Positions 13,346-52,321 are shown, counted from the first letter of the stretch. The stretch: 64,000 bases of DNA from Deltaproteobacteria bacterium (GCA_018645265.1 JABGOS010000088.1:11083-75082); one strand, 5' to 3'. Translations and numbers: made by a program. The notes: generated from the sequence alone by a model not told the origin.

Positions 13346-14149
13346 TCACCATCCGAAGATGTACTTCATGTAAAGATATGCTGCGGGTGCAGTAAATATC
13401 AACGCATCCAAACGATCCAGCACACCACCATGTCCAGGTATAATACACCCTGAATCCTTAACGTTACAGCTCCTCTTGAGCATGGATTCTATCAAATCAC
13501 CAAACGGCGATGTTATCCAAATTATAAATGCTAGTCCTAGCGGCAAGTACCACTCTAGATGTGGCACCAAAAAGTACCATATCACAAAGACACCCAACAT
13601 AGATCCTACCAGTGCACCAGCGAACCCCTCCATAGTCTTATTAGGACTCGTTTTAGGAGCAAACTTATGACGCCCACAAGCCTTTCCAACAGCATATGCA
13701 AATGTATCACAGAGACAAGCTGGTGCGATGGCAAAAAGTACCGCTATATTTCCATAATCCATCTTTCTCAGCCAAACCCAAAATGAAAAAGAGACGCCAA
13801 GATAGAGTATACCGAGGGTAGAGAGACCTATCCTTTCTGCAACCCCTTTCATCTCAGAAGTTCTCCACATGAAGAGCATCGTAAGAAGAAACAGGAGTGA
13901 AGCAAGCGTTACGGGAAGGAGCGTCCTCGTGTTGTCAAAAAAGATCATCACTACAGCGGTGATAATTATAGATAGAACCGTAACCCATCTTTCCAGCACA
14001 TCTTTAAAAAACATCCTTCCATACTCGATAGAGCCGATCAATAGAATGACTAACATTAGAATATTAAAACTATCCTTAGGAAGCCACCATATGGCAGCAA
14101 CGATACCTAGCCCTAATAGAATTGCTGTAATAATTCTTATCATCGACAT
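13346..14149 (-). CDS. cdsA: Phosphatidate cytidylyltransferase
   Basis: Multi-TM with C-terminal GGVLDRLDAL (CTP_transf_1 signature). Confidence 0.85.
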   Translation of the reverse strand: MSMIRIITAILLGLGIVAAIWWLPKDSFNILMLVILLIGSIEYGRMFFKDVLERWVTVLSIIITAVVMIFFDNTRTLLPVTLASLLFLLTMLFMWRTSEMKGVAERIGLSTLGILYLGVSFSFWVWLRKMDYGNIAVLFAIAPACLCDTFAYAVGKACGRHKFAPKTSPNKTMEGFAGALVGSMLGVFVIWYFLVPHLEWYLPLGLAFIIWITSPFGDLIESMLKRSCNVKDSGCIIPGHGGVLDRLDALIFTAPAAYLYMKYIFGW

Positions 14150-19578: not shown

Positions 19579-22500
19579 TCAAGCAGGGGTATTCCTTTTC
19601 TTCCTTGAAATTACCCTTGTAGTCATGAGCATCAGCAACGAACCTAGGAGGTAGATTATGCTGGTCGAGCTTCCTGCTGCCTGTCCAGCGATCAGTGAAC
19701 AACCTTCGCGGCTCCACGTCTTCGCGTAGTTCGCGGGGTTACCACCTACCTCGTATCCATCAGGCTGACCGTCGCCATCGGAATCGGCATTTGTCGGATC
19801 AGATTCCAACCAGTTTCCTTTACCATCCTGATCGCGCTTACCGTTACAGTTTAGATCCTCACCAAGTCCGCTTGAAGATGTGAAACCATCTGTCAATCCG
19901 TCTTGATCTGTATCCATCTCGAGTGCGTTCGTTTCGGAACCCATATCGAAGACACCATTCTGGTTCTTATCTTCGCCGAGACTTACTGTTCCATCGGACA
20001 GAGTCATCGGTCCATCAGGAATACAGTCACCATCGGTATCGATATTCGTTGCGTCCGTGCCGTATTTGAGCTCGAACCCATCGTTCAATCCATCATGATC
20101 CGTATCTGCTTCGAAAGGATCCGTCTCACTCAAGTTAGGCTCGTACGTACAGTTATGATTGATATCCTCATCACCATCCCAGACACCATCACCATCAGTA
20201 TCCGGATTCTGAGGATCTGTTCCTAGATCCTGCTCACAGAGATCCGTTAGTCCATCGCTGTCGGAGTCTTTGCCACCAGGGGCACCTTCTCCACCAACAC
20301 AGTTAGGATTGTCATTGAGTCTACAACCAGCTTCTTCTTCAGAATCTTTATTATTGTCAGCATCGGAATCGCGCATACATGGGTTGGAACCATTCCACTC
20401 AACCATGCTTCCGTTATATTCCTCAGCATCCTTCAGACCATCGTTATCGGAGTCCTTCGAACGTGGGTTCGATACCATCGGTATACCACCGATATTGTCC
20501 CAGATCTCTCCATCGATGATCTTCGTCAGGAAGGCCTGTCCTACTACCAAGTCACCAGTTACTTCGACGCCATCCTCAAGGCCATCACCATCCGTATCCT
20601 TGTTCGTAGGATCGGTATCCTGCATCATAGCATCTATACATCCCTCGGATCCCATCTGGTTCAGGTTCACGAGGTTGAAGCCAGGCTGGCCATCACGGTT
20701 CTCTTCACCATCTGGCAGGCCATCACCGTCTGTATCAGCATTACGCGGGTTCGTGTAGATCGGCATTCCATCGCCATTGACCTTCACATGAGTGTTGGTC
20801 TCAGCGAAATCATCTGCACCATCATCATCTGAATCAGCCTTCAGAGGATTCGTTTCAATCAGTGCCAATGCATCCATCGTAATGGCACCCTGAGAGTTGT
20901 CGTTACCATCGAAGCCCATGCCATCAAGATTCTTATCCTCTTGAGCATCGTACAATTCATCCTGATCGCGATCGATGAAGAATGCGAGCACCCTTCTGAT
21001 AGGATCATCAGCGTAGACACTCTTGAAAGGATCACAGCTGTAGTCGACATAAGGATTCTTGTCAGGGCTGTATTCATCGCTCGTGCTACCTGTTGCTGCA
21101 CTTTCAGGACATACATCGATGTTATCAGCAACTGTATCACCATCGGAATCAGCATCCCAGTACTTCAGCATCTGAGACTGAGGTGTCGTACCAGCAGCAT
21201 TCGTTGAATCACACTCTAATGTTGGCTGCTCTACACAATCCGGAATACCGTCACCATCGACATCACCCTGGCAGATACCCATGAGCTGCTCTCTTGTGAG
21301 ACCGTCGATCTCGAATAGATCTGGAACACCGTTCGTATCGTCATCTTTGAGCGCCACCGGCGAACCATCAAGTTCATCCCAGTATACGTACTCGGCATCG
21401 ATACCCCAGAGGATATCCTTAGGATGACATTTATTCTCCTTTTCACATTCCTTTACCTGATCTGCTATGGTAGTAGCAGTTGGTGTTGCATGGAGAGGAC
21501 ACATGTCAACGCCTCTTGGCGTCTTAGTGGTCGAATCGCAAGTAAAGGAAGCTGTCGGTACTGGGATTATGGTAAGATCAACATCTGCATTGATTGTACA
21601 TGTCTTCACACATCCGCCATCCTTGCCAGTTCCACTATTACCACCACCATCACACCAGTGATCACCATCTGAATCCGACTTCCATGGATTCATCTCGTTA
21701 TTATCTATATCAAGGTCACCGTCGAAGTTCGCACGATCACCCAAGCTTCTATTGCGACACATCAGCATCTGTAGGCGTCTCTCCGTCAACTCATCAACAA
21801 CCTCTGCGCCTGAACTGATGTCACCCCAATTACCCTGCTTCGGATCTTCATAGTACGTATCACAGTATGGATCATCCTTAGCACAGGTTACAATGTACCA
21901 CATATATCTGACACCGGTCTTACTCTCATTGCCTGAGCCCAAAGTACACTCGATTGGCTTCTGAGTAGTCTTGCTCTTAATAGGACTGCGAGTATCATAA
22001 GACCCGCCAAACTTGTAGAGCACGCCCTTCGTAACCGAGGTACCTACGCCGGTGAAGAAATGCTGGTTGCGATCTTCCTGGCCATCCCACACTCCATCAT
22101 TATCACTATCTTTATCTAGAACGTTCGGCTGGCCATCACCATCACTATGTTCAGTCATCGTCTCTTTGCCTACGCCATCTGGAATACCATCACCATCTGT
22201 ATCAGGCTCGTAGAAGTTAGTTTCCTTACCTTCATCCCACACGCAATCGCGATCGAGATCCTCATCATCATCCGGCAGACCATCGCTATCGGTATCAAAT
22301 CCCTTAGCTAGACCACCGCCCGTACCCCTGCTCGCTGCATCTGGAATTTTTCTTACGTCACGACAATGCGCGTAACCTGTCATTACATTGGAACCACCAC
22401 TACCCTTGCCACTGAGCGAACCAAATGGAGAGGAAATGTTTACATCCGGACACTGAATGTCAGGATCGTTTTCTGTAGAAGTGATATGAATGATCTTGCT

Positions 22501-23730
22501 CGCCTGACCAACGCCACCGCCGTTCATTTCAGGAACCAATATTATTCTTGAGAAATCGACCGGGACATTAATGCGGAAAGTTCCTGTGGTATTGTCCATA
22601 CCATAATCAACCGCCTTACCTACAAATGCGATCAACTCACCATCTTCCTTAGCAGTTCCACTCTGTGATTTTCCACCAATGGAGTAGACCTGAAGAGCAC
22701 TCAAACCACCGGCAGCTTCATCGGGACAGCTGTCATCGCTCAAACCTTCAACATTAGCAATGTAGCCCTCTATGATTATCGATGATGGAGTTTCATCACC
22801 TGGTTCATAGATAGCACTCTTATCAATAATTCTTACCTGGTACGGCTGCTTCGATGAAATCCAATCTTCAGAACTCTTAAGCTGTGTAATCGAAAGTCTT
22901 GCACCTGTAGAGAGATACATAAAACCATCATCATCCACTGAACTGATTGTGCCTGCGTTAGGAAGGATAAGGTTATTTGCTGACTCTCCAGGGTTATCAA
23001 AGACGATACCACTGTTTTTCGTATTTCTTAAGCTACAGTCAGAGTAAATGACGTTACCAGCAGCTGTCGGACTCATATAGAATCCATCATCTCCACCGTT
23101 AACCTCAACGTGACTGGCAGAGCTATCGTTTCCATAGAAACAAACACCCTTCATCCCATCCGGGATATTCTGAATTTCGAGGTTTTGAATCTCGACCCAG
23201 TCAACGTCCTCTTCTATTATAACCACGCAATCAAATCCCGATGGAATCTCAGCAGCATCGAGGACGGTTCTCTTTCTCTCCGTCACCTCATTGATACAAG
23301 CGCCTGCATCATCCGTCTCATAGCAGACCGTCTCCTCATCCCATGTATCACACGTACCATCGCCGTTGGAATCGTTGAGACATCCGCCGCTTATAACGAC
23401 GTGATGATCGTTCGATCCATCAGCCCTTATAACGAGAGGACCTTTCATGGCGATCCGCTCCTCCGCAATGGCAATCATCTCGCCACATGCGTAGTGCTGG
23501 CTGGTCGGCCCAAGGTTTGCGGAGTGCATTGCGACAGGCAACGTCAGCTTATTCTTATTGCCCGACTTTGCATCCCACTGACTGCTGGTGACCGTACAGC
23601 TCTTCACACTCATGTGATTATACTTGAAGCCTGCGTCGGCTCTAGATGAAATCACAATGGTGAGCGCGAAGACGACTATCGCCAGCGTTATCATGTTTCG
23701 TGATTTTACGTTATGCATGGTTTCCTCCAA
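19579..23730 (-). CDS. Giant (1383 aa) secreted calcium-binding protein with ~25 thrombospondin type-3-like Asp repeats and a C-terminal Cys-containing sorting-like tag
   Basis: Signal peptide. Reiterated DTDGDGxPD, DSDNDGxxD and DTDHDGLND units. The C-terminus reads GCSLIAGQAAGSS, then a hydrophobic helix IIYLLGSLLMLM, then RVISRKKR. Confidence 0.7.
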   Translation of the reverse strand: MEETMHNVKSRNMITLAIVVFALTIVISSRADAGFKYNHMSVKSCTVTSSQWDAKSGNKNKLTLPVAMHSANLGPTSQHYACGEMIAIAEERIAMKGPLVIRADGSNDHHVVISGGCLNDSNGDGTCDTWDEETVCYETDDAGACINEVTERKRTVLDAAEIPSGFDCVVIIEEDVDWVEIQNLEIQNIPDGMKGVCFYGNDSSASHVEVNGGDDGFYMSPTAAGNVIYSDCSLRNTKNSGIVFDNPGESANNLILPNAGTISSVDDDGFMYLSTGARLSITQLKSSEDWISSKQPYQVRIIDKSAIYEPGDETPSSIIIEGYIANVEGLSDDSCPDEAAGGLSALQVYSIGGKSQSGTAKEDGELIAFVGKAVDYGMDNTTGTFRINVPVDFSRIILVPEMNGGGVGQASKIIHITSTENDPDIQCPDVNISSPFGSLSGKGSGGSNVMTGYAHCRDVRKIPDAASRGTGGGLAKGFDTDSDGLPDDDEDLDRDCVWDEGKETNFYEPDTDGDGIPDGVGKETMTEHSDGDGQPNVLDKDSDNDGVWDGQEDRNQHFFTGVGTSVTKGVLYKFGGSYDTRSPIKSKTTQKPIECTLGSGNESKTGVRYMWYIVTCAKDDPYCDTYYEDPKQGNWGDISSGAEVVDELTERRLQMLMCRNRSLGDRANFDGDLDIDNNEMNPWKSDSDGDHWCDGGGNSGTGKDGGCVKTCTINADVDLTIIPVPTASFTCDSTTKTPRGVDMCPLHATPTATTIADQVKECEKENKCHPKDILWGIDAEYVYWDELDGSPVALKDDDTNGVPDLFEIDGLTREQLMGICQGDVDGDGIPDCVEQPTLECDSTNAAGTTPQSQMLKYWDADSDGDTVADNIDVCPESAATGSTSDEYSPDKNPYVDYSCDPFKSVYADDPIRRVLAFFIDRDQDELYDAQEDKNLDGMGFDGNDNSQGAITMDALALIETNPLKADSDDDGADDFAETNTHVKVNGDGMPIYTNPRNADTDGDGLPDGEENRDGQPGFNLVNLNQMGSEGCIDAMMQDTDPTNKDTDGDGLEDGVEVTGDLVVGQAFLTKIIDGEIWDNIGGIPMVSNPRSKDSDNDGLKDAEEYNGSMVEWNGSNPCMRDSDADNNKDSEEEAGCRLNDNPNCVGGEGAPGGKDSDSDGLTDLCEQDLGTDPQNPDTDGDGVWDGDEDINHNCTYEPNLSETDPFEADTDHDGLNDGFELKYGTDATNIDTDGDCIPDGPMTLSDGTVSLGEDKNQNGVFDMGSETNALEMDTDQDGLTDGFTSSSGLGEDLNCNGKRDQDGKGNWLESDPTNADSDGDGQPDGYEVGGNPANYAKTWSREGCSLIAGQAAGSSTSIIYLLGSLLMLMTTRVISRKKRNTPA

Positions 23731-23777: not shown

Positions 23778-24911
23778 TTAGAATACAAACTGCAGAGTGG
23801 CTCCGCCACCGATGCCACCGCTGATCTGTCCCTGATGTCCATTGACATCTGAGTCTGTCGCTTCAAGAACGCTTCTCTCTGAAAAACCTGCGATCGGTAC
23901 ATCGAAGAATACATTACCCATGAGCCTTATGGCCGAGAGAATATCCTCCACACCACCGGTGTTGATCTGGATGCCGGCTGCGAGCATGAATCCGAGAATA
24001 CCGCGTCCCTGCTGTATCGGACCTGTCGCCGTACTGGCGAGATTTGCATATTCACCACCGAGATGGAACTGAGCACCAACTACGAGTGAAACAGAATCAT
24101 GGACCGGGATTACAGGTTCGAGACCTACAAATGCGGTTCCTCTGAAGCCAGCCTTCGGTTCGCTATCTACTGCACCGTTCGATGACATGATGCGGCTGGA
24201 GATAGGAATTCCTAGCAATGCACCGTATGAGAGGAAGAGACCTGAATGCTGCTGTGGCTTTCCCCACATCATAAGGCGACGTCTTCCCTCAAGGCTGATT
24301 TGAACCATGTGGCTAACTGCTCCACCGTCTCCACCCAAATCGCCCATATAGGACATATCACTGAAATCTCCATCGGTACCCTGGACCCATCCGCTACCGC
24401 TGTATCCATAACCAAGGCCCAAAACAAACTGATGCTCATCTACCTTGTCGGCATCTTTCGGTGTCGCTTTGCATGATTTGGAAGCAGCATCAAAAGTTTC
24501 ATCGCTATCACAAGGCTTACATACGCCCGCATCCACTTTCTTGCCTTCAAGAGCACACTCATCAGCAGTCTTCGGCTTCGGTGCGGCCATATCTTTTTCG
24601 ACATCGGCACGCTTCGGCAATGATGGAGCACTTGCCATACCATAAAAGCCAGACATTCCCTTGAACATCGGCAATGGAAGCTTGCCTGTGTGCATCTGGA
24701 AATAATCCTCACACTTAGCTGCGATAGGGGTGCCCTTCGTATGCCCTATGGTGCCGAGAAATTCGGACCAATCCTTCCCTGTGGCATCACCAGCATCAAA
24801 CATCTGTTGATCTGTATCTACCATTGAGCATCTAAATGTGATGCCATCCTTGAAATCCTGACACGCTTTGGTTGTACAACTCTTTAGTGTTCCGTCGCCT
24901 GCTGAAAACAT
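23778..24911 (-). CDS. Cys-rich protein with OMP-like beta-barrel C-terminal half (ends ...GGATLQFVF); no detectable signal peptide
   Basis: Strong RBS (AAGGAGG 7 nt before the ATG). The C-terminal 200 aa have alternating hydrophobic strands and a terminal Phe. Sits immediately upstream of the giant gene on the same strand with a 47-nt gap. Confidence 0.45.
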   Translation of the reverse strand: MFSAGDGTLKSCTTKACQDFKDGITFRCSMVDTDQQMFDAGDATGKDWSEFLGTIGHTKGTPIAAKCEDYFQMHTGKLPLPMFKGMSGFYGMASAPSLPKRADVEKDMAAPKPKTADECALEGKKVDAGVCKPCDSDETFDAASKSCKATPKDADKVDEHQFVLGLGYGYSGSGWVQGTDGDFSDMSYMGDLGGDGGAVSHMVQISLEGRRRLMMWGKPQQHSGLFLSYGALLGIPISSRIMSSNGAVDSEPKAGFRGTAFVGLEPVIPVHDSVSLVVGAQFHLGGEYANLASTATGPIQQGRGILGFMLAAGIQINTGGVEDILSAIRLMGNVFFDVPIAGFSERSVLEATDSDVNGHQGQISGGIGGGATLQFVF

Positions 24912-31688: not shown

Positions 31689-32219
31689 ATGAGGAAATTA
31701 GTAATCGCACTATCGATCGCCGCGAGCGTGACGATTCTGCTCCCGCAGATCGCTTCAGCAGGAACAGCCATGTTCAATAAGGACATGCAGGGCAGCAAGA
31801 TGGCCCTCGACAAACAGTGCATGCCACCCGCTGTAATGGTTGGTGTCGTCTACTCCGATAGAGGCGGCACAGATGCTATGGATGCTGCATCTGCAATTTG
31901 TTATTCAAAGCAACGCGGAGAATTTGAGATTCCTAACTCTGATTTTGGAGATCGCGCGAAGGTACGTGCTAAATGCAACCGTGATACAGAATATGTATGG
32001 GGTATTGCCTATAAAGACCGTGTCGACAGTGATGAGGCTGATGGCGTTACCGTAATATGCAGAAATAAGAAGAGTGGCTCGCAGAGAATTGTCAATGTAC
32101 CGGACCTTGCAGGTGGCCGTGCGTGGATGCAATTCACTGGAGCAAACGCAATAGGCATCTCCTGTAACGATAGGCAGGACTCCGATTCAGTAGATGGCTG
32201 CACTGTAATAGTAAAATAA
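31689..32219 (+). CDS. Small secreted protein with three internal D-x-DSD-x-DG-x-TVIC repeats
   Basis: Signal peptide (LLPQIASAGTA). Repeats DRGGTDAMDAASAICY, DRVDSDEADGVTVICR and DRQDSDSVDGCTVIVK. GAGGGAGG RBS. Confidence 0.5.
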   Translation: MRKLVIALSIAASVTILLPQIASAGTAMFNKDMQGSKMALDKQCMPPAVMVGVVYSDRGGTDAMDAASAICYSKQRGEFEIPNSDFGDRAKVRAKCNRDTEYVWGIAYKDRVDSDEADGVTVICRNKKSGSQRIVNVPDLAGGRAWMQFTGANAIGISCNDRQDSDSVDGCTVIVK

Positions 32220-32452: not shown

Positions 32453-33994
32453 ATGTCTAAACTGTTCTCCATCTTAGCACTTATAACAGTGCTTTTCCTT
32501 TCTCCAATGAGCCATGCAGACAACCAAATGACGGAAACGTTTCTAAACGACTTGGACTATCTGCATGAAGTGGGCGGTGACATATATTGTTATTGGGATC
32601 TCAAGAAGGAGATGGATGGGGTCGACTGGGATGAGCTCTATGAAGAGGCACGCTCACAGATGACCTCAGCTACTACGATCAAAGGATACTATACCATCCT
32701 TCGCAAGATGATAGCAGGAGTACACGATGGACATGTCAATATCTCGATGTTGAAAAATCAACTCAGCAATCCATACTATCTACCGCTAAGATTCAAAGAA
32801 GTTGAAGGAAATAAAATCGTAATCTCCGCTATAAAAACGGGAGCTTTTATAGATCAACCGCCCTTCACACTTGGTGATCAGGTCGTCGCTATGAATGACA
32901 TTCCAATAGAGGATGTAATCACGGACTGGCAGCAATATATGTCGGGCTCAACGGAACAACTGAGACGTTTCTATACGATCAAATTCATGCACAACTGGCC
33001 GCCATACAATGAACCTCCAATGAGCAATTCAATTCTCACGATCAAAGATGGAGGGACGACTCGCAAAGTTGAAGTTCCCTGGATCATCTATGACTATAAC
33101 GATGACCCAACATATAAGATGGAAGAGTACCGCATCAACGAGGATGTGGAAGCAAAGATTCTCCCGGGGAATATCGGATATCTCAGAGTGAGCGCAATGT
33201 ACGCCCCTGTGGATGAGAAATACATTCCATATATCAGATCTCAGATGGAGAAACTTCTGAACACCGATGGGCTCATCATCGATGTCCGAAATAATGGTGG
33301 CGGTTGGGGTGAAGTTGGTGATGCAATAATCAGCTACCTAATTGACGAACCTAAAATTCGTTACAAAGCCTCGCCTAGGATGTCTCCTCAGCTATTATAT
33401 GCAAGACCCCACTTTTATTCCGCATTCGAAGCGGACTTTGAAAACGATCCTCTATTTGCAAAATGGAAGGATTTCATCATTGAACCAGCACCCAAGGAGC
33501 TTCGATACAAGGGAGAAGTCATTACATTGATCAATTCAAAGTGTTTTTCAGCATGCGATACTTTCGCTGACAGCATCGCATCAAACAAGCTTTCAAAGAT
33601 GATGGGTACACCGACAGGAGGCGGCACCGGCTATCCAATGTATATTGAGATGCCTAGCGGAATGAGCGTAGCCAGATTCTCAACTACTCGAGGGTATTCC
33701 AACTTTGGCAGGCTCTTGGAGGGCACTGGTACAATTCCGGATATCTACGCCAGACTAACAAATGATGATATTAGGAATCGCCGCGATTCCGTTCTGATGA
33801 GCGCATATGAAATGTTGCTTGGCGATAATCAGCTAACAAAATCACACTCTCTCAAAAACGCAGTCACATATTCATACTCCGGGAAGAAGGAACTAGTTTT
33901 CTTTCCACTCGCCGATGAAGAGATACTGCCTCAGAATATTGAAGAGGAGAGGCTCATCAACCTGAGCAGCCACGAATTTGATGAGCTTTGGTGA
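32453..33994 (+). CDS. Secreted S41-family (tail-specific/C-terminal processing) peptidase
   Basis: Signal peptide. DVRNNGGGW matches the S41 LRNNGGG motif. A PDZ-like segment lies upstream. Confidence 0.65.
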   Translation: MSKLFSILALITVLFLSPMSHADNQMTETFLNDLDYLHEVGGDIYCYWDLKKEMDGVDWDELYEEARSQMTSATTIKGYYTILRKMIAGVHDGHVNISMLKNQLSNPYYLPLRFKEVEGNKIVISAIKTGAFIDQPPFTLGDQVVAMNDIPIEDVITDWQQYMSGSTEQLRRFYTIKFMHNWPPYNEPPMSNSILTIKDGGTTRKVEVPWIIYDYNDDPTYKMEEYRINEDVEAKILPGNIGYLRVSAMYAPVDEKYIPYIRSQMEKLLNTDGLIIDVRNNGGGWGEVGDAIISYLIDEPKIRYKASPRMSPQLLYARPHFYSAFEADFENDPLFAKWKDFIIEPAPKELRYKGEVITLINSKCFSACDTFADSIASNKLSKMMGTPTGGGTGYPMYIEMPSGMSVARFSTTRGYSNFGRLLEGTGTIPDIYARLTNDDIRNRRDSVLMSAYEMLLGDNQLTKSHSLKNAVTYSYSGKKELVFFPLADEEILPQNIEEERLINLSSHEFDELW

Positions 33995-34032
33995 TAGAAC
34001 TCAAATAACTAAACAGCTGAGTGTAATTGGAT

Positions 34033-35361
34033 TCAGGATATGCCCTGTACCTTCTTCACTAAAGGCGCAATAACCTCCTCCAGATGTTTCTCTGATGTTT
34101 CACTTGCTTTGTTTAAGAGCAGCTTAAGTGTAATTGGCCCGATCAATTGATTGATAGTTATAGCGGCTATCATAACAGTACGAAATGTTGCACCCCACTC
34201 GGGAAATACCCTTGCAACTGTAACAACAAGTCCAAGGCCAACGCCTGCCTGACTTACGAATCCCATCCAGCCATAGCGCTTGAGAAGACGCCCTTCCTTA
34301 CCTATACTTGCCCCTGCATATGTACCGACTGCTGTACCAAGAACCCTCAAAAATACTATACCCAAAGCATAAGGCCACATCGTCCGGATGGCAGTGAAAT
34401 CGATCATAGCACCAGCCAAGGCAAAAAATATGATATATACTGCCATTGAGGTGCGCTCTATAGCACCTACCAATCGATCGCCAAGACTCGTAAAGTTTTC
34501 TACTAGAAATCCAGCCATCAAACATGAAAGAAGATAGTGAAAACCCAATAATTTTGATAAAAATACGATCCCCAATGAGACCGTAACAACGAAGATAACG
34601 AACTCACGTCGTATATATTTAAGATAAAGGCCAACCACTACACTGACCGCTACGCCTCCGATCAAGGAGAGTGCGATAACGATGAGTGCCTCACCAATAA
34701 CCCCACCCTTAAGCGTTCCCCCCACCTTTATGGCGTAGGCAATGGCAAGCGCCATGGTAAAACCCAAAAAGACCAGAACATCCTTAATTACAGTCACACC
34801 TATTGTAATGTCGGTAATGCGGCCCTTCGACCTAGACCCAACGATGACAGCGATAGTGGTTGCAGGTGAACATGCAACCGCAACAGCACCAAGCATAATT
34901 GAAACAACGATCAGATCTCTCGTCAAAAGTCCGAAGCTGTTTATATGATACATGGCGAGATAGCTACCACCCATGACAATTGCAAAGATCAATACCGCCT
35001 GTAATACAGATATTGATAATATACTCAGTGCACATTTTTTAAATTTAGATAACTTTATCTCTCCACCAGCGGTAAAAGCTATTAAAGCTAGAGCTAGATC
35101 CTCTACGATTCCAAACTGCAGGACTGTTCCGTGATCCACCAAGTTGAGCAATTCCGGTCCACAGATAATACCCGCCAGGAGATATCCTGAAATACTCGGA
35201 AGTCCTATTTTTACAACGTAGCAACCGGCAATGTATCCGGCAAATATCATAAAACCAAATGCGAGAATGGCCCTAGGCATTGGATCCGCACCGGTAGCCC
35301 CCATAAGGTATTTCAACGTAAGCATAGATAACATCAAGAAGAAGAGAACGAGCACCCTCAT
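34033..35361 (-). CDS. Cation:proton antiporter (CPA/NhaP-KefB-like), paralogue 1
   Basis: 12+ TM segments. GLPSISGYLLAGIICGPELLNLV matches the CPA N-terminal signature. Confidence 0.6.
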   Translation of the reverse strand: MRVLVLFFLMLSMLTLKYLMGATGADPMPRAILAFGFMIFAGYIAGCYVVKIGLPSISGYLLAGIICGPELLNLVDHGTVLQFGIVEDLALALIAFTAGGEIKLSKFKKCALSILSISVLQAVLIFAIVMGGSYLAMYHINSFGLLTRDLIVVSIMLGAVAVACSPATTIAVIVGSRSKGRITDITIGVTVIKDVLVFLGFTMALAIAYAIKVGGTLKGGVIGEALIVIALSLIGGVAVSVVVGLYLKYIRREFVIFVVTVSLGIVFLSKLLGFHYLLSCLMAGFLVENFTSLGDRLVGAIERTSMAVYIIFFALAGAMIDFTAIRTMWPYALGIVFLRVLGTAVGTYAGASIGKEGRLLKRYGWMGFVSQAGVGLGLVVTVARVFPEWGATFRTVMIAAITINQLIGPITLKLLLNKASETSEKHLEEVIAPLVKKVQGIS

Positions 35362-36566
35362 GCTATACCCTCCTCTCTATTGAGGAGGAGCCTGATAAAA
35401 TATGAACTAGCCACACCATTTATGACAAATGCGATAACGACGGCACTGACGACAATCTGACTGATCATCCCAGGATACCTATTTAAAAAATCCAAAGACA
35501 TTGCAATTGATAGACCGCCCTGTTCCAAGAGCGAAAGCCCGAATAAATTTGGATTGCCTTTCATGAGAGGAACCGCCCAAAACGCAACTCGTGAGCCCAA
35601 CATCTTTGCCACAATTCTTATCACTACAAAAAAGAGGGACAACAGAACACAGAATGACTCAAATCCCATCCAGTATGCACCAGCTAGAATCAACATCATT
35701 CCAAAAAGAGGCTTCTCTGCGTTGGATAGGAGGCTTAACAATCTATCCTGATCATCAGAAAAATTATTAAGGACAATTCCAACGATCATCGAAAGAAAGA
35801 GAGGCGATACATCTATTGTAGAAGCTGCACCCGCCAGCATCACCACGATGCCAATCGCTATAACCAACCTTTCATTACTGGACAGCCTCAGCTTAAGGAA
35901 GACGTGATATAGAATACCCAAGAGAAAGCCGAGTCCTATTGTAATCAACAACCATATAAATCCTTGTACAAAAGCCCCTTCCACCATCGTATCCATCTTG
36001 AAGAACGAAAGGGATATCCCAAAAAGAGATATCCCTACAATGGCGTCGGATGCAGATACATAGAGTAGTGTCCTAGCAGTTGTGCCATGAGCCCTCATAC
36101 GTCTGACCACAGCGGAAACAGCAGTAGGTGCAGAAATGCTAGCAATAGCGGCAAGCGCAAATACGACTGGAAGCTCCTCAGACAGTGATAGAAAGAGATC
36201 AGGTTTAAAATAACGCAGGGGCAGCAGAAAAAGGCAGCAGAAAAAGAATACGACCAATGACTGAATAACCGCTATCTTAAAGTTCGCTCGCGATATCAGC
36301 CTCAAACTCTTAACTCTGAATTGAAGGCCAAACATGAGCCCAGCCCAACTGAGTATGATCGATGTTGGAGCGATGAATAGATCGAGCCGTGTTGAGTTCA
36401 ACCAATCCATACCAAGAGGTCCTACGGCCACCCCCATTAGTATGAAACCAACTCCAGCATGTAAAAAACTTGATATAAAGAATGGAAGACGCCAAGACTT
36501 AAAGACCAATCCAGCACCCATGTAGGCGAAAAGAACGAGGATTAGGATAAAGATAATGGATTCCAT
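35358..36566 (-). CDS. Cation:proton antiporter-like membrane protein, paralogue 2
   Basis: Multi-TM. ILMGVAVGP segment. Overlaps paralogue 1 by 4 nt (coupled). Confidence 0.55.
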   Translation of the reverse strand: MESIIFILILVLFAYMGAGLVFKSWRLPFFISSFLHAGVGFILMGVAVGPLGMDWLNSTRLDLFIAPTSIILSWAGLMFGLQFRVKSLRLISRANFKIAVIQSLVVFFFCCLFLLPLRYFKPDLFLSLSEELPVVFALAAIASISAPTAVSAVVRRMRAHGTTARTLLYVSASDAIVGISLFGISLSFFKMDTMVEGAFVQGFIWLLITIGLGFLLGILYHVFLKLRLSSNERLVIAIGIVVMLAGAASTIDVSPLFLSMIVGIVLNNFSDDQDRLLSLLSNAEKPLFGMMLILAGAYWMGFESFCVLLSLFFVVIRIVAKMLGSRVAFWAVPLMKGNPNLFGLSLLEQGGLSIAMSLDFLNRYPGMISQIVVSAVVIAFVINGVASSYFIRLLLNREEGIA

Positions 36567-36580
36567 AATAGGGCATCATC

Positions 36581-36928
36581 TTAGGACGATTTCCCGCCTC
36601 CCCCCTTAAGCCCAATGAACCTTCCAACCGGCAGGGTAAAAAGAACCCCCATACCTTCCTCTTCGAAATCACCACATATCTCTTTAACAAGCCTAACAAC
36701 CTTTTCGACCTGATCCTCATCCGCAACTGATAGGATCATGTGGTTGCCTATATTTCCTCCAGGCATGAGATCACGAAGACCGGCAAAGATAGGCACCTCC
36801 GCCGTAAGAATCTGCCCCATACCACGACTGTCAATAACCGTAGCGCCCTTTATGCCGATGTCGACAAAGCCCGTCAGGATATCGTCCAGAAAACGAGTGT
36901 GTTTTATGATCAATACGATGAGTTCCAA
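36581..36928 (-). CDS. PII-like (GlnB/DUF190 superfamily) signal-transduction protein
   Basis: 115 aa with a beta-alpha-beta ferredoxin-like start (MELIVLIIKHTRFLDDIL). Gly-rich T-loop-like segment. Lies 15 nt upstream of the transporter pair. Confidence 0.55.
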   Translation of the reverse strand: MELIVLIIKHTRFLDDILTGFVDIGIKGATVIDSRGMGQILTAEVPIFAGLRDLMPGGNIGNHMILSVADEDQVEKVVRLVKEICGDFEEEGMGVLFTLPVGRFIGLKGGGGKSS

Positions 36929-36966
36929 TTATCCCCCCGTTCTCTACAAATATCTAAAAAAAACAC

Positions 36967-37434
36967 CTACCCCACACAACGTTCATCTTCCTCTAGAATC
37001 AGTTGCACGAGATCATCTTTATCTTCTGACTGACTAAGCAGCTCTATAAAGATATCCTTGGAGCACAACCTGGATATGCGCGCCAACAGAGCTATATGTT
37101 CATCCACAGCAGCAGGTGGGCTGATCAGCACTATAACCAATTTCACCGGTCTTTTATCTATAGATTTAAAATCGATTGGATCCGCAAGGGTTGCGATTGC
37201 CATGTAGGTTTTATCCAAGCTCTCGATTGTTGCGTGAGGTATTGCCAGCCCCTTACCTATACCTGTAGAACAACTCGATTCCCTCTTCAAAAGCTCCCTA
37301 ACGACGATATCCACATCTATCTTTACACCGGATTCATAGAACTCTTCGGACAGTGTCCTGAATAAGGAATCCACAGATGGGGTATGAACTTTTACAGCGA
37401 TTACAGCATCTTTTAAGAATGGTGCGAGTTTCAT
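36967..37434 (-). CDS. ptsN: PTS EIIA type-2 (EIIA-Ntr/PtsN-like) regulatory protein
   Basis: GIGKGLAIPHAT with the phosphorylatable His. 155 aa. Confidence 0.7.
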   Translation of the reverse strand: MKLAPFLKDAVIAVKVHTPSVDSLFRTLSEEFYESGVKIDVDIVVRELLKRESSCSTGIGKGLAIPHATIESLDKTYMAIATLADPIDFKSIDKRPVKLVIVLISPPAAVDEHIALLARISRLCSKDIFIELLSQSEDKDDLVQLILEEDERCVG

Positions 37435-37476
37435 ATGCGCATTTGAAACCGTGAAGGGACAGGATGTCGAACTCTA

Positions 37477-37493
37477 AAGCGTCCGACGCTTCT
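37477..37493. repeat. Degenerate REP-like copy with compensatory stem changes (AAAGCGTCCGACGCTTC)
   Basis: T>C and A>G substitutions preserve the palindrome (GCGTC/GACGC). Confidence 0.5.
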
Positions 37494-37579
37494 TACAAAG
37501 TGATGTCTATACCCTCACAACTCCAGTATCCTAAAGTACGCAAACTGATATCATGATGAAGATAAGAGGTAAAGCACGT

Positions 37580-38176
37580 CTATACCGCGGGAGTTGTCTT
37601 CTTTCTGCGTCCCCTGACACCACCCTTTGGCATGATGACCGGCTTTACCGTTTCGAATAGCCTTGAATGATCGAACGGTGTGGAAATCCTAAGATCTGCG
37701 CCATTGTTAGGAGCTGTAGGTCCGGAAACTACGGCAACTTTCACATTCTTAAGCGAGGGTGCCATGTGAATGCTTTTGCAAGCCTTTGTGGCATCCAAAC
37801 CGGTCAGTGATGTATTTAAGATAACAAGATCAGGTTTCATTGACTCAATTAAAATACCTGCTTCGAATATATCATCCGTATTACGAACCTCGACGTTGTT
37901 TCTGTGAGTATGAAAGGATTCCTGAAGGCTGCGACTGACTTCCCCATCCTTGTCGACTACCACAATCTTCTTCTTCTCAGGATCGTGCTTGTCATTTATG
38001 GGCAAAGCATACTCGCGAGAAAAGCTCTCAAGATCGTCAATATTTATTCTAAGATGACCACCGGCAGTTCTATAAGCGGAGAGAAGTCCCCTCTTAATCC
38101 AATTTTTGATAGTGTTATAACTTACATTACACAGTGCAGCTGCTTCAAATGTTGTCAGTATTTGCTTGTTGGCCAT
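37580..38176 (-). CDS. HTH (MerR/excisionase-type) DNA-binding protein fused to a receiver-like domain lacking the phospho-acceptor Asp (pseudo-receiver)
   Basis: N-terminal LTTFEAAALCNVSYNTIKNWIKRGLL. The receiver-like fold has DLVILN where DLVILD is expected. Confidence 0.5.
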   Translation of the reverse strand: MANKQILTTFEAAALCNVSYNTIKNWIKRGLLSAYRTAGGHLRINIDDLESFSREYALPINDKHDPEKKKIVVVDKDGEVSRSLQESFHTHRNNVEVRNTDDIFEAGILIESMKPDLVILNTSLTGLDATKACKSIHMAPSLKNVKVAVVSGPTAPNNGADLRISTPFDHSRLFETVKPVIMPKGGVRGRRKKTTPAV

Positions 38177-38294
38177 CTAACCCTCCGAATTTAAAAGATA
38201 ATATTGCGTATAGTTGATTATACAATTATTATAATACTAAGTGCTGAAGTGCTCTGCATAGTAGAATTGATAAAATTTAGCAACTGCTAAATAA

Positions 38295-39557
38295 TTATTT
38301 CTTGATCAGCGAGGCGCCAAAAAAGCCATCCCAGCTGTAAGTGACGGGATTTGTTCTGAAATACATTCCATCGATAATATCGGTCGAGTCTACAGAATAA
38401 CGGGCAAAGTATTGATCTGGCTTCTCTAAAGCGAAGTCTCCGTTCCTCTCTAAAAATTTCTTCACGACATCATCATTTTCCTCATCGAACAGACTACAGG
38501 TCAGATAGACGACCCTTCCCCCTTCAGCAACAAACTGAGTTCCCTCATTTAGGATTTCCAATTGCATCTCTGCCCTATCCGAAATCAGTTTTTCATCGAT
38601 ACGCCATTTTAGATCAGGATTTCGACGTAAGGTCCCAGTCCCGGTACATGGGGCATCAATCAAAACGACATCAAATGATCCACGGAGTTTGTTGCTATCC
38701 ATCAAAGTGTCTTTAGATATAGTCTCTATACAATCGATTTTCATCCTCTTCGCTCTTGCATACAACTTCTTGAGTTTTTTTGAATCGATGTCCGATGCAA
38801 ACATCTGGCCCTGGCCGTTCATTAAATCCGCCAACATAAGAGATTTTCCACCTGCACCGGCGCACAGATCCAAAACCTTCTGTTTCTCACTGGAGAAAGC
38901 CAAGAACGTAGCAAGTTGACTAGCCTCATCCTGAATATCTATAGAACCATTCTTGTATGATGGCACGGTTTCGAGGTTCACCCTCTTGTTTAATCTGATA
39001 CCGAATGGAGACATTGTAGTCTCAAGTCCTTGTATTCCTAAATCCTTAAGCTCAGATATAATAATATCCCTATCAGTCTGAGCTTTGTTGATACGAAGAA
39101 CCGGCATAAGGGGTTCGTTCAGGGAAGGAAGACGGCCTTTATACTCTTCTGTACGATTCTTTTTTATTCTCCGATACAAAAAATCAGGCAATGAATAATA
39201 CGCAGCCTCACCACCTGGAAACCTATTCGAACCTACAGAATCATAATCAATACCGGAGAGCATTGCCTCAATAGTAGCATTGAGGACTAGTTTCTCTGAG
39301 CCCTCCGGTTTCTTCCACAAGTAGTAACACAGAATCCTATTCTGCCACGTCGATTTCCTGACACCAGACAGCTCAAGATATCCATCAAGGCGTCTTAACC
39401 AACGCATAACACCGAAGATCGTCTCGTAAAGCAGCCTTCGGTTCGCCCCGCTGATCTCCTTATGTTTCTTAAGATAAGCGGATAATACCCTATCGATTGG
39501 CTTGGGTTCTATCTCGAATGATTTAAGGACTGTAACTGAATGATCAATTATATTCAT
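38295..39557 (-). CDS. rsmB: RNA m5C methyltransferase, NOL1/NOP2/Sun (RsmB-like) family
   Basis: SAM motif DLCAGAGGKS. Catalytic DAPCTGTG and a second Cys region. Confidence 0.7.
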   Translation of the reverse strand: MNIIDHSVTVLKSFEIEPKPIDRVLSAYLKKHKEISGANRRLLYETIFGVMRWLRRLDGYLELSGVRKSTWQNRILCYYLWKKPEGSEKLVLNATIEAMLSGIDYDSVGSNRFPGGEAAYYSLPDFLYRRIKKNRTEEYKGRLPSLNEPLMPVLRINKAQTDRDIIISELKDLGIQGLETTMSPFGIRLNKRVNLETVPSYKNGSIDIQDEASQLATFLAFSSEKQKVLDLCAGAGGKSLMLADLMNGQGQMFASDIDSKKLKKLYARAKRMKIDCIETISKDTLMDSNKLRGSFDVVLIDAPCTGTGTLRRNPDLKWRIDEKLISDRAEMQLEILNEGTQFVAEGGRVVYLTCSLFDEENDDVVKKFLERNGDFALEKPDQYFARYSVDSTDIIDGMYFRTNPVTYSWDGFFGASLIKK

Positions 39558-51022: not shown

Positions 51023-52321
51023 TTAGAAACTGGGCTCAGCCAAAGGGTTAACAATTCCATACATCTTTGTGTTAGCTTTGACGGCAACAGCAAGTGCTTC
51101 TTCATCAGTAACGATATCTAGTGCCTGAATAAGTCCACGTGAAAAAGCTGAATGCAAACCATCACCCATATAAGCAGGTAATTTTACCCTGCTTTTTACT
51201 CGAGCTGCTTCCAAAGTAATCAATGCACTTCGAAGTGTTACAGCATCTCGAAGGATATCGCCTATACCAATACCACCATCCTCCTCAAGAGCGAATGGCT
51301 TAGCAATCAACGGTGAGTTCAGCCCACCCCAGGGATTATTAACTCTCCAAGCAACATTAATAATTCTCAGCATCTCTATTAGTGATTGAGCTTTATCAGC
51401 CGCACTTCCTTCACCAAGACTTTTTAGAATTGCCTCATTCTCTAAACCAAATAAGACGGCTGCAACATTATCGGTTTGTAGTTTGAATAAATATGCAGGA
51501 CGTTCCGCCATCCAATCCGGGTTTTCTTGAACCTGAATACCTAAAAGTGCTTTCCATTCACCCCCGACGGTATTTAGCATAAAACCACTTTCGAAGGCCC
51601 TACCAGCAGCTGCTTCAAAACTCCTTGAGAAGGCTACTGTTGCCTCTGCATCATCAGGAAGAACAAAGTCACCTTCCATTAATTTAAACTTTTTACCAGG
51701 GGCATGATGGGTTTCAAGATCCACCGAGGTTATCAAGCCGCCAGTTATACATCTCCTTATAAAATCATGAACTTCTTGTGTATACGGAGTATAGTACTTC
51801 TGTTGCTTTTCACCCGTTAGCCACGCCTCATGTGTAGCCCTTGCGAGATTGTGTAAATTTGTACCTACACCCCTACCTGGGTTAGCGCCTTCAAATCTTC
51901 CCAAGGCTTCATGAGTTTTTAGCTGGAGCTGCATCAGGCTTGAATAAACCCAAAAGGAATGAACAAGACGTTGTTTATCTGTAGCCAGAGCTCCTTCATC
52001 CCATGCGTTCTGCAAGGCCTCAAATGTATCAGGACCTACAAAATCATGTACACCGCCCATACCATCTGGACTAGCATACATCTTCACAAAATCAGAAACT
52101 CCTTGTGGCGCACGCGGCGTAACACCTGTAAAAGCGCTCACATCACCAGCTCTACCAGGTATTGAACTCAACTGTGGACCGCTAAGTTCAAACATCGCTG
52201 TAACTCTGGGATTGGCAACATATGTCGTAGCAGCCGCACCAACTGTAAATGGCCGTCCAGCAACTCCAAGGGTGAGCCCCTCCGTGGCTAATGCAGCTAG
52301 ATTACCTGCCGAAATCATCAT
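51023..52321 (-). CDS. Hypothetical 432-aa protein (orphan; no signal peptide; possibly capsid/shell-like, unverified)
   Basis: No motif recognised. Flanked by AT-rich intergenic DNA and a strong terminator. Confidence 0.4.
   Translation of the reverse strand: MMISAGNLAALATEGLTLGVAGRPFTVGAAATTYVANPRVTAMFELSGPQLSSIPGRAGDVSAFTGVTPRAPQGVSDFVKMYASPDGMGGVHDFVGPDTFEALQNAWDEGALATDKQRLVHSFWVYSSLMQLQLKTHEALGRFEGANPGRGVGTNLHNLARATHEAWLTGEKQQKYYTPYTQEVHDFIRRCITGGLITSVDLETHHAPGKKFKLMEGDFVLPDDAEATVAFSRSFEAAAGRAFESGFMLNTVGGEWKALLGIQVQENPDWMAERPAYLFKLQTDNVAAVLFGLENEAILKSLGEGSAADKAQSLIEMLRIINVAWRVNNPWGGLNSPLIAKPFALEEDGGIGIGDILRDAVTLRSALITLEAARVKSRVKLPAYMGDGLHSAFSRGLIQALDIVTDEEALAVAVKANTKMYGIVNPLAEPSF

What the first reader, a model, noticed from the sequence alone, without database searches (positions are those of the whole stretch)
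34033..37434. EIIA(Ntr)-like / PII-like / tandem cation-proton antiporter module
Four same-strand genes are tightly packed: a PtsN-like EIIA (with the GLAIPHAT His site), a PII-like small protein, and two paralogous CPA-type antiporters that overlap by 4 nt. EIIA-Ntr regulates K+ transport in enterobacteria, and PII-like proteins gate transporters, as in SbtB-SbtA. The physical linkage suggests a two-layer regulatory switch on monovalent cation/proton exchange. I am not aware of a described arrangement of this kind.
Basis: inference. Interest (0 to 1): 0.55.

Follow-up and report, generated by a model that had tools for sequence, protein, structure and literature searches.

The report
PtsN-like/PII-like regulator pair on antiporters
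A four-gene operon pairs two small signalling proteins (a PtsN-like EIIA and an unusual PII-like protein) with two membrane ion exchangers, and this undescribed pairing recurs in at least six bacterial phyla, so it is probably a widespread switch on salt and pH balance.

Summary
Four minus-strand genes (34033-37434) encode a PtsN-like EIIA, a divergent PII-fold protein and two deeply diverged CPA-fold paralogues whose stop and start overlap by 4 nt.

The linkage is not chance. Of 80 loci from species-representative genomes that carry this PII-like family, 39 have EIIA and PII-like next to one or more CPA genes. These come from Myxococcota, Desulfobacterota, Planctomycetota, Gemmatimonadota and CSSED10-310. 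In 9 spirochaete loci the same pair heads an Mrp (CPA3) operon instead. An exhaustive profile search found three divergent EIIA::PII-like fusion proteins. The two with readable flanks sit beside CPA genes. It also found a PII-like::PilZ fusion that replaces EIIA in front of a CPAa/CPAb pair.

Best reading: the PII-like protein is a constant adaptor, joined to a swappable input domain (EIIA-Ntr or PilZ), and together they control H+-coupled monovalent-cation exporters that lack regulatory domains of their own. The mechanism is inferred, not shown. The ligand, the binding partners and the transported ion are all untested. No HPr, EI or HprK gene lies nearby, and 25 loci carry the PII-like gene alone.

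I found no published description in five completed full-text searches and two reviews. I rate it a new variant of known kinds (SbtB-SbtA, GlnK-AmtB, PtsN-YcgO).

The parts
36967..37434 (-). PtsN-like EIIA (EIIA-Ntr class), 155 aa, first gene of the operon
   Evidence: Pfam PF00359, E 8.7e-31. The family profile matches PtsN crystal structures 4gqx, 3urr, 1a6j and 2a0j at E 1e-30 to 1e-32, against 1e-14 for EIIA-Mtl. It is 28% identical to E. coli PtsN, with H66 aligned to the PtsN phospho-His H73. H66 is conserved in at least 90% of 32 family members; H112 and R121 are invariant. It scores below the NCBIfam PtsN equivalog cutoff (73.3 against 138.7 bits).
36581..36928 (-). Divergent PII-fold protein, 115 aa, TTG start, with a conserved hydrophobic T-loop motif GMGQIL..(D/E)VPIFAGL
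   Evidence: Pfam PF00543, 31.4 bits against a gathering score of 25. The profile aligns full length with GlnB structures, E 2.8e-5. AlphaFold pLDDT 81; top Foldseek PDB hits are canonical PII and PotN, probability 1.0, TM 0.6-0.8. The family has 585 clusters (50% identity) at E<=1e-10. NCBI names it 'hypothetical protein HN337_04960'. The N-terminus MEL... is shared by homologues.
35358..36566 (-). CPAa: divergent CPA-fold membrane protein, 402 aa, always the gene next to the PII-like gene; no cytoplasmic regulatory domain
   Evidence: No Pfam or NCBIfam hit as a single sequence. Profile against NapA 4bwz, E 1.7e-13 over residues 40-387. AlphaFold pLDDT 79, pTM 0.84; Foldseek matches NapA, MjNhaP1, PaNhaP, SOS1 and KefC. 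R316, K320 (aligned with NapA K305) and N267 are invariant. The TM5 motif is D-[A/S/G], so the second, canonical Asp is missing.
34033..35361 (-). CPAb: CPA-fold antiporter paralogue, 442 aa; its start overlaps the CPAa stop (ATGA)
   Evidence: Pfam PF00999, E 2e-25. Profile hits NHE6, NapA and MjNhaP1 at E 1e-6 to 3e-3. TM5 is x-D, with D193 invariant and aligned to the D of the CPA1 'ND' motif. TM10 R338 is invariant. TM4 is SPS/SPA, with no Asp. A start codon overlaps the CPAa stop by 4 nt in about 13 of 18 loci from four phyla.
37580..38176 (-). HTH_17 + receiver-domain protein upstream; possible local transcriptional regulator, not a conserved part of the module
   Evidence: Pfam HTH_17, E 1.6e-11. 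Response_reg scores 28.7 bits, below its cutoff of 30.2. NCBIfam gives a weak DVU0259-family hit. It lies upstream of the module only in close relatives L001, L002 and L088, and nearby on the other strand in L013.

Best explanation
The four genes form one operon for a regulated H+-coupled monovalent-cation exporter. CPAa and CPAb are bare CPA-fold membrane proteins with no RCK/KTN or CorC domain. They are probably made in fixed proportion and may form a heterodimer. Regulation is supplied in trans by a composite sensor. The PII-like protein is the constant adaptor. By analogy with SbtB-SbtA and GlnK-AmtB, it would dock its conserved hydrophobic T-loop on the cytoplasmic face or inter-domain cleft of the transporter and hold it inactive or active, depending on a bound small ligand. 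The PtsN-like EIIA is an input module that reports the phosphorylation state of a PTS-Ntr-type relay through His66, much as unphosphorylated PtsN inhibits the K+/H+ antiporter YcgO in E. coli. It acts together with the PII-like protein, probably bound to it. Shown here: the domain identities, the folds, conserved synteny, the gene fusions and the switch of antiporter type. Inferred: direct binding, the direction of control, the ligand, the transported ion (Na+ or K+) and the heterodimer.
For: 1. Domain and fold assignments.
2. Synteny: 39 of 80 loci from species-representative genomes have EIIA and PII-like next to CPA genes. In 38 the order is EIIA, PII-like, CPA on one strand. In L024 EIIA lies downstream on the other strand. 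In L029 the upstream flank is cut off. The record titles name five phylum-level groups. Gemmatimonadota carry a single CPAa.
3. Nine spirochaete loci have PII-like, EIIA, MnhE, MrpF, MrpG, MbhD/E and MrpD in that order. The same pair is thus linked to a non-homologous class of cation/proton antiporter. Planctomycete loci have convergent Mrp genes after the CPA pair.
4. Every locus with an adjacent antiporter and an intact upstream flank also has EIIA.
5. Three divergent EIIA::PII-like fusion proteins keep the phospho-His. P0185 was assembled in three separate samples and is followed by a 400-aa Na_H_Exchanger gene. P0194 is flanked by Na_H_Exchanger genes on both sides.
6. A PII-like::PilZ fusion precedes CPAa-like and CPAb-like genes, with 4-nt overlaps and no EIIA nearby.
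7. The T-loop motif is conserved across all context classes.
8. The CPAa stop/CPAb start overlap is conserved.
9. [quoted passage not shown]
Against: No binding, transport or phosphorylation data exist for any member.

25 of 80 loci carry the PII-like gene with neither EIIA nor an antiporter beside it. These are Gemmatimonadaceae loci flanked by MurA, a DUF948-like gene and a phospholipase C gene, and Myxococcota loci flanked by a Ser/Thr kinase and a VKOR-DsbA gene. Four more loci have EIIA and PII-like but no detectable antiporter. The family therefore has, or can have, other targets or partners encoded elsewhere.

No HPr, NPr, EI or HprK signature occurs in the 64-kb window or within 8 kb of the module in any of the 80 loci.

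The PII-like protein lacks the canonical ATP/2-oxoglutarate contact residues (K58, R38/Q39, K90, R101), so its ligand is unknown.

PII proteins are trimers (established knowledge), whereas CPA antiporters are dimers and Mrp is a multi-subunit complex. A symmetric SbtB-like docking cannot simply be copied.

CPAa lacks the canonical TM5 Asp, so its transport competence is uncertain. Yet Gemmatimonadota have only CPAa next to the pair.
Confidence: 0.6

Rival explanations
1. EIIA and the PII-like protein are general signalling proteins whose main targets are enzymes or regulators elsewhere in the genome. The antiporter genes are only co-transcribed, or the transporters act as sensors that report to the pair and are not controlled by it.
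For: 25 of 80 loci have the PII-like gene without an antiporter or EIIA, and 4 have the pair without a detectable antiporter. E. coli PtsN and canonical PII proteins each have many targets (PMC13104625; established knowledge). One locus (L070) has the PII-like gene in front of an ATP synthase a-subunit gene.
Against: The pair is tied to two non-homologous antiporter types, with very short gaps or overlaps. Both fusion proteins with readable flanks sit beside CPA genes. The CPA proteins have no regulatory domain of their own.
Confidence: 0.17
2. CPAa/CPAb do not exchange Na+ or K+ for H+ but move another substrate, for example NH4+, an anion, or a metabolite with Na+/H+. The PII-like protein would then gate it as GlnK gates AmtB or SbtB gates SbtA.
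For: The ion-site motifs are atypical. CPAa has D-[A/S/G] in place of DD/ND. CPAb has K/R-D in the window, in L002, L007 and L079, and in planctomycetes, and has no TM4 Asp. Both fall far below the NCBIfam CPA2 cutoff (39.5 against 238 bits for CPAb, no hit for CPAa).
Against: All structural and profile neighbours are cation/proton antiporters. CPAb keeps the invariant TM5 Asp and the TM10 Arg, as in electroneutral CPA1 exchangers. The same regulator pair is attached to Mrp Na+/H+ antiporter operons, which points to cation/H+ exchange as the shared function.
Confidence: 0.13
3. The pair controls expression of the operon and not transporter activity, for example by acting on the adjacent HTH_17-receiver protein, as PtsN acts on KdpD or PII on NtrB.
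For: An HTH_17 + REC gene lies 145 nt upstream in the window and in close relatives.
Against: That gene is found only in close relatives and is absent from most syntenic loci. The fusions and the Mrp-linked versions have no such neighbour.
Confidence: 0.06

Closest known systems
SbtB-SbtA (cyanobacterial PII-like protein and Na+/bicarbonate transporter)
   Same: A small PII-fold protein is encoded beside an elevator-type secondary transporter that has no regulatory domain of its own. In SbtB-SbtA the T-loop inserts into the hydrophobic core/gate cleft and partly blocks the exit (PMC8352866). Here too the T-loop is long, hydrophobic and the best-conserved segment.
   Different: The transporter family differs (CPA fold or Mrp, not SbtA). 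There is no C-terminal CGPxGC motif (sequence). An EIIA or PilZ partner is obligatory here and SbtB has none. CPA proteins are dimers, not trimers. The ligand is unknown.
PtsN (EIIA-Ntr) control of K+ transport in E. coli: YcgO, TrkA, KdpD
   Same: The EIIA profile matches PtsN structures best, and the phospho-His is conserved. Unphosphorylated PtsN binds and inhibits the CPA1 K+/H+ antiporter YcgO (PMC11808508).
   Different: E. coli ptsN sits in the rpoN operon, unlinked to its targets, and binds a CorC domain in the YcgO C-terminal region. CPAa and CPAb have no such region. Here the EIIA is dedicated, is paired or fused with a PII-like protein, and scores below the PtsN equivalog cutoff.
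GlnK-AmtB
   Same: A PII-family gene is co-transcribed with the transporter whose pore it plugs with its T-loop (as summarised in PMC8352866).
   Different: The protein here lacks the canonical residues for ATP and 2-oxoglutarate binding and the Y51 modification site. It scores 18.5 against 181 bits on the NCBIfam GlnB model. No amtB gene is nearby.
PotN (PII-like protein of Lentilactobacillus, PDB 7o4x)
   Same: It is among the structural neighbours of the model (rank 15). From my own knowledge, it is another non-canonical PII protein, encoded in the pot polyamine ABC-transporter operon.
   Different: It is linked to an ABC importer, not an antiporter, has no EIIA partner, and shares only 17% identity.
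Kef, KhtTU and CpaA-type CPA2 systems with RCK/KTN or ancillary subunits
   Same: They are CPA-fold K+/H+ exchangers held in check by soluble ligand-sensing modules: glutathione adducts for Kef (PMC11808508) and c-di-AMP for others (established knowledge). KefC 8bxg is a fold neighbour of CPAa.
   Different: No RCK/KTN domain or KefF/G-like subunit is present. The sensing is done by a PII-fold protein plus EIIA or PilZ.

Membership tests
Canonical PII (GlnB/GlnK) | Ferredoxin-like beta-alpha-beta x2 fold with a long T-loop | tested here: met
   AlphaFold pLDDT 81 with strands and helices in PII order. Foldseek gives probability 1.0 and TM 0.6-0.8 to GlnB, GlnK and GlnZ structures.
Canonical PII (GlnB/GlnK) | Pfam PF00543 at or above the gathering score | tested here: met
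   31.4 bits against 25. Only about half of the homologues carry the precomputed hit.
Canonical PII (GlnB/GlnK) | ATP/2-oxoglutarate contact residues R38, Q39, K58, K90, R101 and the T-loop modification site Y51/S49 | tested here: not met
   In the HMMER alignment to 2gw8 and 2eg1 these positions map to Q39, I40, N62, V95 and G106 of the window protein. The T-loop has no conserved Tyr or Ser. The Gly-x-Gly loops (36-38 and 92-94) are kept. Residue numbering for canonical PII is from established knowledge.
Canonical PII (GlnB/GlnK) | NCBIfam P-II equivalog score | tested here: not met
   18.5 bits against a cutoff of 181.
Canonical PII (GlnB/GlnK) | Homotrimer with ligand sites between the subunits | not testable with these tools
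   Only monomer prediction was available.
SbtB-type PII-like | Encoded beside sbtA; many members carry a C-terminal CGPxGC redox motif | tested here: not met
   The neighbours are CPA or Mrp genes. The C-terminus is GLKGGGGKSS, with no Cys pair.
PtsN / EIIA-Ntr | PTS_EIIA_2 fold with the phospho-accepting His in a G-x-A-x-P-H context, plus a second conserved His and an Arg | tested here: met
   Pfam E 8.7e-31. H66 aligns with E. coli H73. H66 is conserved in at least 90% of members; H112 and R121 are invariant. The closest solved structures are PtsN.
PtsN / EIIA-Ntr | NCBIfam PtsN equivalog cutoff (TIGR01419, NF008145) | tested here: not met
   73.3 against 138.7 bits and 64.9 against 221 bits.
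PtsN / EIIA-Ntr | Phosphorylation by an EI-Ntr/NPr relay | not testable with these tools
   No HPr, EI or HprK signature in the window or within 8 kb of the module in the 80 loci. The pattern was validated on E. coli NPr. The rest of the genomes could not be read.
CPA superfamily (Na_H_Exchanger fold) | 13-TM NapA/NhaP-like fold | tested here: met
   CPAb: Pfam E 2e-25. CPAa: profile against NapA E 1.7e-13, Foldseek TM about 0.7 to NapA and NhaP, hhalign CPAa against CPAb probability 99.9.
CPA superfamily (Na_H_Exchanger fold) | Essential TM5 Asp (second position of the DD/ND motif) and a TM10 Lys or Arg | tested here: inconclusive
   CPAb: D193 and R338 are invariant, so the feature is met. 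CPAa: the second position is A, S or G in 35 of 38 sequences, so the Asp is not met, while K320 is invariant and the first-position Asp is present in 29 of 38. An alignment at about 15-20% identity could be off by one residue.
CPA2 family (NCBIfam TIGR00932) / Kef-type | Family score cutoff; C-terminal KTN/RCK domain for Kef | tested here: not met
   CPAb scores 39.5 against 238.3 bits and CPAa has no hit. No TrkA/RCK domain was found, and the proteins end right after the last TM helix.

The most novel reading that the evidence does not exclude
A previously unrecognised, portable regulatory cassette consists of a PII-fold adaptor plus an exchangeable input domain (a PtsN-like EIIA reading PTS phosphorylation, or PilZ reading c-di-GMP). 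It directly gates structurally unrelated H+-coupled cation exporters (CPAa/CPAb heterodimers and Mrp complexes) in at least six bacterial phyla. In this reading CPAa is a catalytically altered partner subunit that serves as the docking platform.
Probability: 0.35. Interest if true: 0.75.

Novelty: new variant of a known kind. Interest (0 to 1): 0.62.

Why it matters
Most bacterial cation/proton antiporters are studied as autonomous, pH-gated machines or as RCK-regulated Kef-type systems. This module suggests a third, widespread solution. Transporters with no regulatory domain would be controlled in trans by a PII-fold adaptor coupled to a metabolic or second-messenger input.

If confirmed, it would extend the PII superfamily to Na+/K+/pH homeostasis. 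It would give PtsN-type proteins a dedicated, genetically linked target outside Proteobacteria. It would also provide the first candidate soluble regulator of Mrp complexes that I am aware of.

The natural fusions make direct tests straightforward: EIIA::PII-like, PII-like::PilZ, and one cultured carrier, Planctomycetales bacterium ZRK34, CP050848.1 (L034).

Tried and rejected
- **Chance adjacency.** Rejected by synteny across phyla and by the gene fusions.
- **CPAa is not a CPA protein.** It has no Pfam hit, but profile, profile-profile and fold searches all place it in the CPA fold.
- **Riboswitch or other RNA element upstream.** No Rfam hit at gathering score across the window apart from three tRNAs. 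No hit at E<=1 in 36800-38400.
- **Promoter and terminator scan of 33800-38400.** The counts equal the shuffled expectation, so the scan is uninformative.
- **PTS partners nearby.** Signature-motif searches for HPr, EI and HprK found nothing in the window or in the 80 loci.
- **Literature.** Five completed full-text searches (two further attempts failed on syntax) found no description. Text look-ups in a 2026 PTS-Ntr review (zero mentions of PII) and in a PII review also found none.
- **First gene-calling attempts.** A crude longest-ORF approach failed on the high-GC loci. I replaced it with a PII-anchored, GC3-weighted caller backed by tblastn.
- **Structure prediction with the deep CPAa alignment.** A shallow 6-sequence alignment was used instead.
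- **Word-indexed homologue search with CPAa.** It found only 6 proteins, so family alignments were built from the loci.
Full report
**1. What is in the sequence**

The interval 34033-37434 holds four consecutive minus-strand ORFs.

- **EIIA (36967-37434, 155 aa).** It matches Pfam PTS_EIIA_2 at E 8.7e-31.
- **PII-like (36581-36928, 115 aa, TTG start).** It matches Pfam P-II at 31.4 bits, above the gathering score of 25.
- **CPAa (35358-36566, 402 aa).** It has no Pfam or NCBIfam hit.
- **CPAb (34033-35361, 442 aa).** It matches Na_H_Exchanger at E 2e-25.

The gaps between the genes are 38 nt and 14 nt, followed by a 4-nt ATGA overlap. The next gene upstream (37580-38176) encodes an HTH_17 domain plus a weak receiver domain. 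Downstream lies a convergent S41 peptidase gene.

The window comes from a MAG labelled 'Deltaproteobacteria bacterium'. NCBI calls the PII-like protein 'hypothetical protein HN337_04960'.

**2. Identity of each part**

*EIIA.* A profile of 32 family members matches solved PtsN (EIIA-Ntr) structures at E 1e-30 to 1e-32. It matches mannitol-type EIIA only at 1e-14. The window protein is 28% identical to E. coli PtsN, and H66 aligns with the phospho-His H73. H66 is conserved in at least 90% of members, and H112 and R121 are invariant. The protein still scores below both NCBIfam PtsN equivalog cutoffs. It is therefore PtsN-like, but not demonstrably the organism's general PtsN.

*PII-like protein.* Its profile aligns end to end with GlnB structures at E 2.8e-5. 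The AlphaFold model (pLDDT 81) matches canonical PII proteins and PotN with probability 1.0. In that alignment the canonical ligand-contact positions R38, Q39, K58, K90 and R101 correspond to Q39, I40, N62, V95 and G106 (canonical numbering is from established knowledge). The two Gly-x-Gly loops are retained. The best-conserved segment is the T-loop motif GMGQIL..(D/E)VPIFAGL, which is hydrophobic and lacks a conserved Tyr or Ser. An exhaustive HMM search of 1.84 billion representatives found 585 clusters at E<=1e-10 and 1412 at E<=1e-3. This looks like a distinct, medium-sized subfamily.

*CPAa and CPAb.* They are only 21% identical, but their family profiles align with probability 99.9 and E 7.8e-36. 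The CPAa profile matches NapA at E 1.7e-13. Its model (pLDDT 79, pTM 0.84) matches NapA, MjNhaP1, PaNhaP, SOS1 and KefC. Neither protein has a cytoplasmic regulatory domain.

The ion-site motifs differ between the two.
- **CPAb** keeps an invariant TM5 Asp (D193), aligned with the D of the CPA1 'ND' motif, and an invariant TM10 Arg (R338). It lacks the TM4 Asp.
- **CPAa** has Asp at the first TM5 position in 29 of 38 sequences, and planctomycetes have lost it. The second position is Ala, Ser or Gly. It keeps an invariant Lys (K320) aligned with NapA K305.

So CPAb looks transport-competent by canonical criteria, and CPAa is atypical.

**3. Is the linkage real?**

I scanned one genome per GTDB species with the PII-like alignment. 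This gave 251 relatives, of which the best 80 loci were kept. I scored neighbours by tblastn and by a PII-anchored gene caller.

| Context of the PII-like gene | Loci (of 80) | Lineages (from record titles) |
|---|---|---|
| EIIA and PII-like next to CPAa, usually followed by one or two CPAb genes | 39 | Myxococcota, Desulfobacterota, Planctomycetota, CSSED10-310; Gemmatimonadota with CPAa only |
| PII-like and CPA genes, upstream flank cut by the contig end (L029) | 1 | CSSED10-310 |
| PII-like, EIIA, then an Mrp operon (MnhE, MrpF, MrpG, MbhD/E, MrpD; Pfam) | 9 | Spirochaetes |
| PII-like then EIIA, no Mrp operon seen downstream (L057 contig ends just after EIIA) | 2 | Spirochaetes |
| EIIA and PII-like, no detectable antiporter | 4 | Gemmatimonadota, Phycisphaerae |
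| PII-like alone | 25 | Gemmatimonadaceae (MurA, DUF948-like and phospholipase C neighbours); Myxococcota (Ser/Thr kinase and VKOR-DsbA neighbours) |

- In 38 of the 39 EIIA+CPA loci the order is EIIA, PII-like, CPA on one strand. In L024 EIIA lies downstream on the other strand.
- Planctomycete loci also have convergent Mrp genes after the CPA pair.
- Every locus with an adjacent antiporter and an intact upstream flank also has EIIA.
- A start codon overlaps the CPAa stop by 4 nt in about 13 of 18 loci from four phyla. This fits coupled, stoichiometric synthesis.

**4. Gene fusions**

The top 150 hits of the exhaustive search include three mutually divergent proteins of 275-289 aa. Each has an N-terminal PTS_EIIA_2 domain, with the phospho-His kept, and a C-terminal PII-like domain.
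- **P0185** was assembled identically in three samples and is followed by a 400-aa Na_H_Exchanger gene.
- **P0194** comes from an NCBI assembly and lies between two Na_H_Exchanger genes.
- **P0173** sits on a contig too short to read its neighbours.

In each case the two domains share one reading frame.

A fourth protein, P0177, is a PII-like::PilZ fusion. It is followed, with 4-nt overlaps, by a CPAa-like gene (E 7e-25) and a CPAb-like gene (E 3e-70). No EIIA gene is nearby.

These fusions argue that EIIA and the PII-like protein work as one unit. They also show that the PII-like part is constant while the input domain can be exchanged.

**5. Most likely mechanism (inferred)**

The operon probably encodes a cation/proton exporter whose regulation is supplied in trans.
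- By analogy with SbtB-SbtA, the hydrophobic T-loop of the PII-like protein would dock on the cytoplasmic face of the transporter. [quoted passage not shown]
- By analogy with PtsN-YcgO, the phosphorylation state of EIIA would modulate that complex. In E. coli only unphosphorylated PtsN binds and inhibits the K+/H+ antiporter (PMC11808508).

Attachment of the pair to both CPA and Mrp systems points to cation/H+ exchange as the controlled process.

Still unknown are the ligand of the PII-like protein, the phosphodonor, the ion, the stoichiometry of a trimer acting on a dimer, and whether CPAa is catalytic. No HPr, EI or HprK signature occurs in the window or within 8 kb of the module in any locus.

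**6. Comparison with known systems, and novelty**

The nearest analogues are listed here.
- **SbtB-SbtA and GlnK-AmtB:** a PII-fold plug on a co-encoded transporter.
- **PtsN-YcgO, PtsN-TrkA and PtsN-KdpD:** EIIA-Ntr control of K+ flux.
- **PotN:** a PII-like protein that, from my own knowledge, lies in a transporter operon.
- **Kef-type systems:** a soluble sensor acting on a CPA exchanger.

This module differs from all of them. It combines a PII-fold protein with a PtsN-like or PilZ partner. Its PII protein lacks the canonical ligand residues. It is attached to bare CPA pairs or to Mrp operons.

Five completed full-text searches, a 2026 PTS-Ntr review with no mention of PII, and a PII review gave no description of it. 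That library is incomplete, so the absence is not proof.

I rate it a new variant of known kinds, with interest 0.62. The comparative evidence for a functional unit is strong. All biochemistry is still inference.

**7. Negative or uninformative checks**

- There are no Rfam elements apart from three tRNAs.
- The promoter and terminator scan was at background level.
- The upstream HTH-REC gene is conserved only in close relatives.

Noticed in passing
L087:4610-8336 (metagenome contig SRR31372310_5017): A PII-like::PilZ fusion protein (P0177, 405 aa) replaces the EIIA + PII-like pair in front of CPAa-like and CPAb-like genes. This suggests c-di-GMP can substitute for the PTS input.
   Followed up: partly
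L083:2859-4908; L085:1-3179; L086:494-1363: There are three divergent EIIA::PII-like single-chain fusions (P0185, P0194, P0173). Two are directly adjacent to Na_H_Exchanger genes; the third contig is too short to tell.
   Followed up: yes
L044, L060, L062, L063, L068, L075, L077, L078, L080 (about 8000-14000 in each): In spirochaete MAGs the PII-like/EIIA pair (gene order swapped) heads a complete Mrp-type (CPA3) antiporter operon: MnhE, MrpF, MrpG, MbhD/E and MrpD.
   Followed up: yes
window 35358-36566 and 34033-35361: The TM5 motifs are complementary. CPAa has D-[A/S/G], with Asp only at the first position and an invariant TM10 Lys. CPAb has x-D, with Asp only at the second position and an invariant TM10 Arg. 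CPAa may be a non-canonical or non-catalytic partner. Yet Gemmatimonadota have only CPAa next to the pair.
   Followed up: partly
L070:1417-3212: In one Deltaproteobacteria MAG the PII-like gene is followed by an ATP synthase a-subunit gene and small genes that may belong to an ATPase operon. This is another ion-translocating machine, but it is a single observation.
   Followed up: no
L006, L008-L011, L020, L022, L026 compared with L045, L047, L053, L054, L065: Gemmatimonadota loci with the same flanks (MurA on the opposite strand, a DUF948-like gene, a Zn phospholipase C gene) carry either EIIA, PII-like and CPAa or the PII-like gene alone. EIIA and CPAa therefore appear to be gained or lost together while the PII-like gene persists.
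   Followed up: partly
window 32453-33994 (+): An S41 peptidase convergent with the operon gives its best NCBIfam match to the chlamydial protease-like activity factor CPAF (119.6 bits, below the cutoff of 250). An S41/PDZ peptidase sits in the same position in relative L088.
   Followed up: no
window 19579-23730 (-): A 1383-aa ORF has no Pfam hit at E<=1e-4. ORFs at 23778-24911 (377 aa), 51023-52321 (432 aa) and 31689-32219 (176 aa) also have none.
   Followed up: no
alignment A5 against PDB: The EIIA family profile weakly matches the cytoplasmic domain of human anion exchanger AE2 (E 1.3e-4). From my own knowledge, this fits the reported EIIA-like fold of band-3-type cytoplasmic domains, another case of an EIIA-like module attached to an ion exchanger.
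   Followed up: no
window 4000-56000: GC skew is strongly negative (about -0.2) across the stretch where almost all genes are on the minus strand. It returns to about 0 at 30-34 kb and after 56 kb, where plus-strand genes occur.
   Followed up: no
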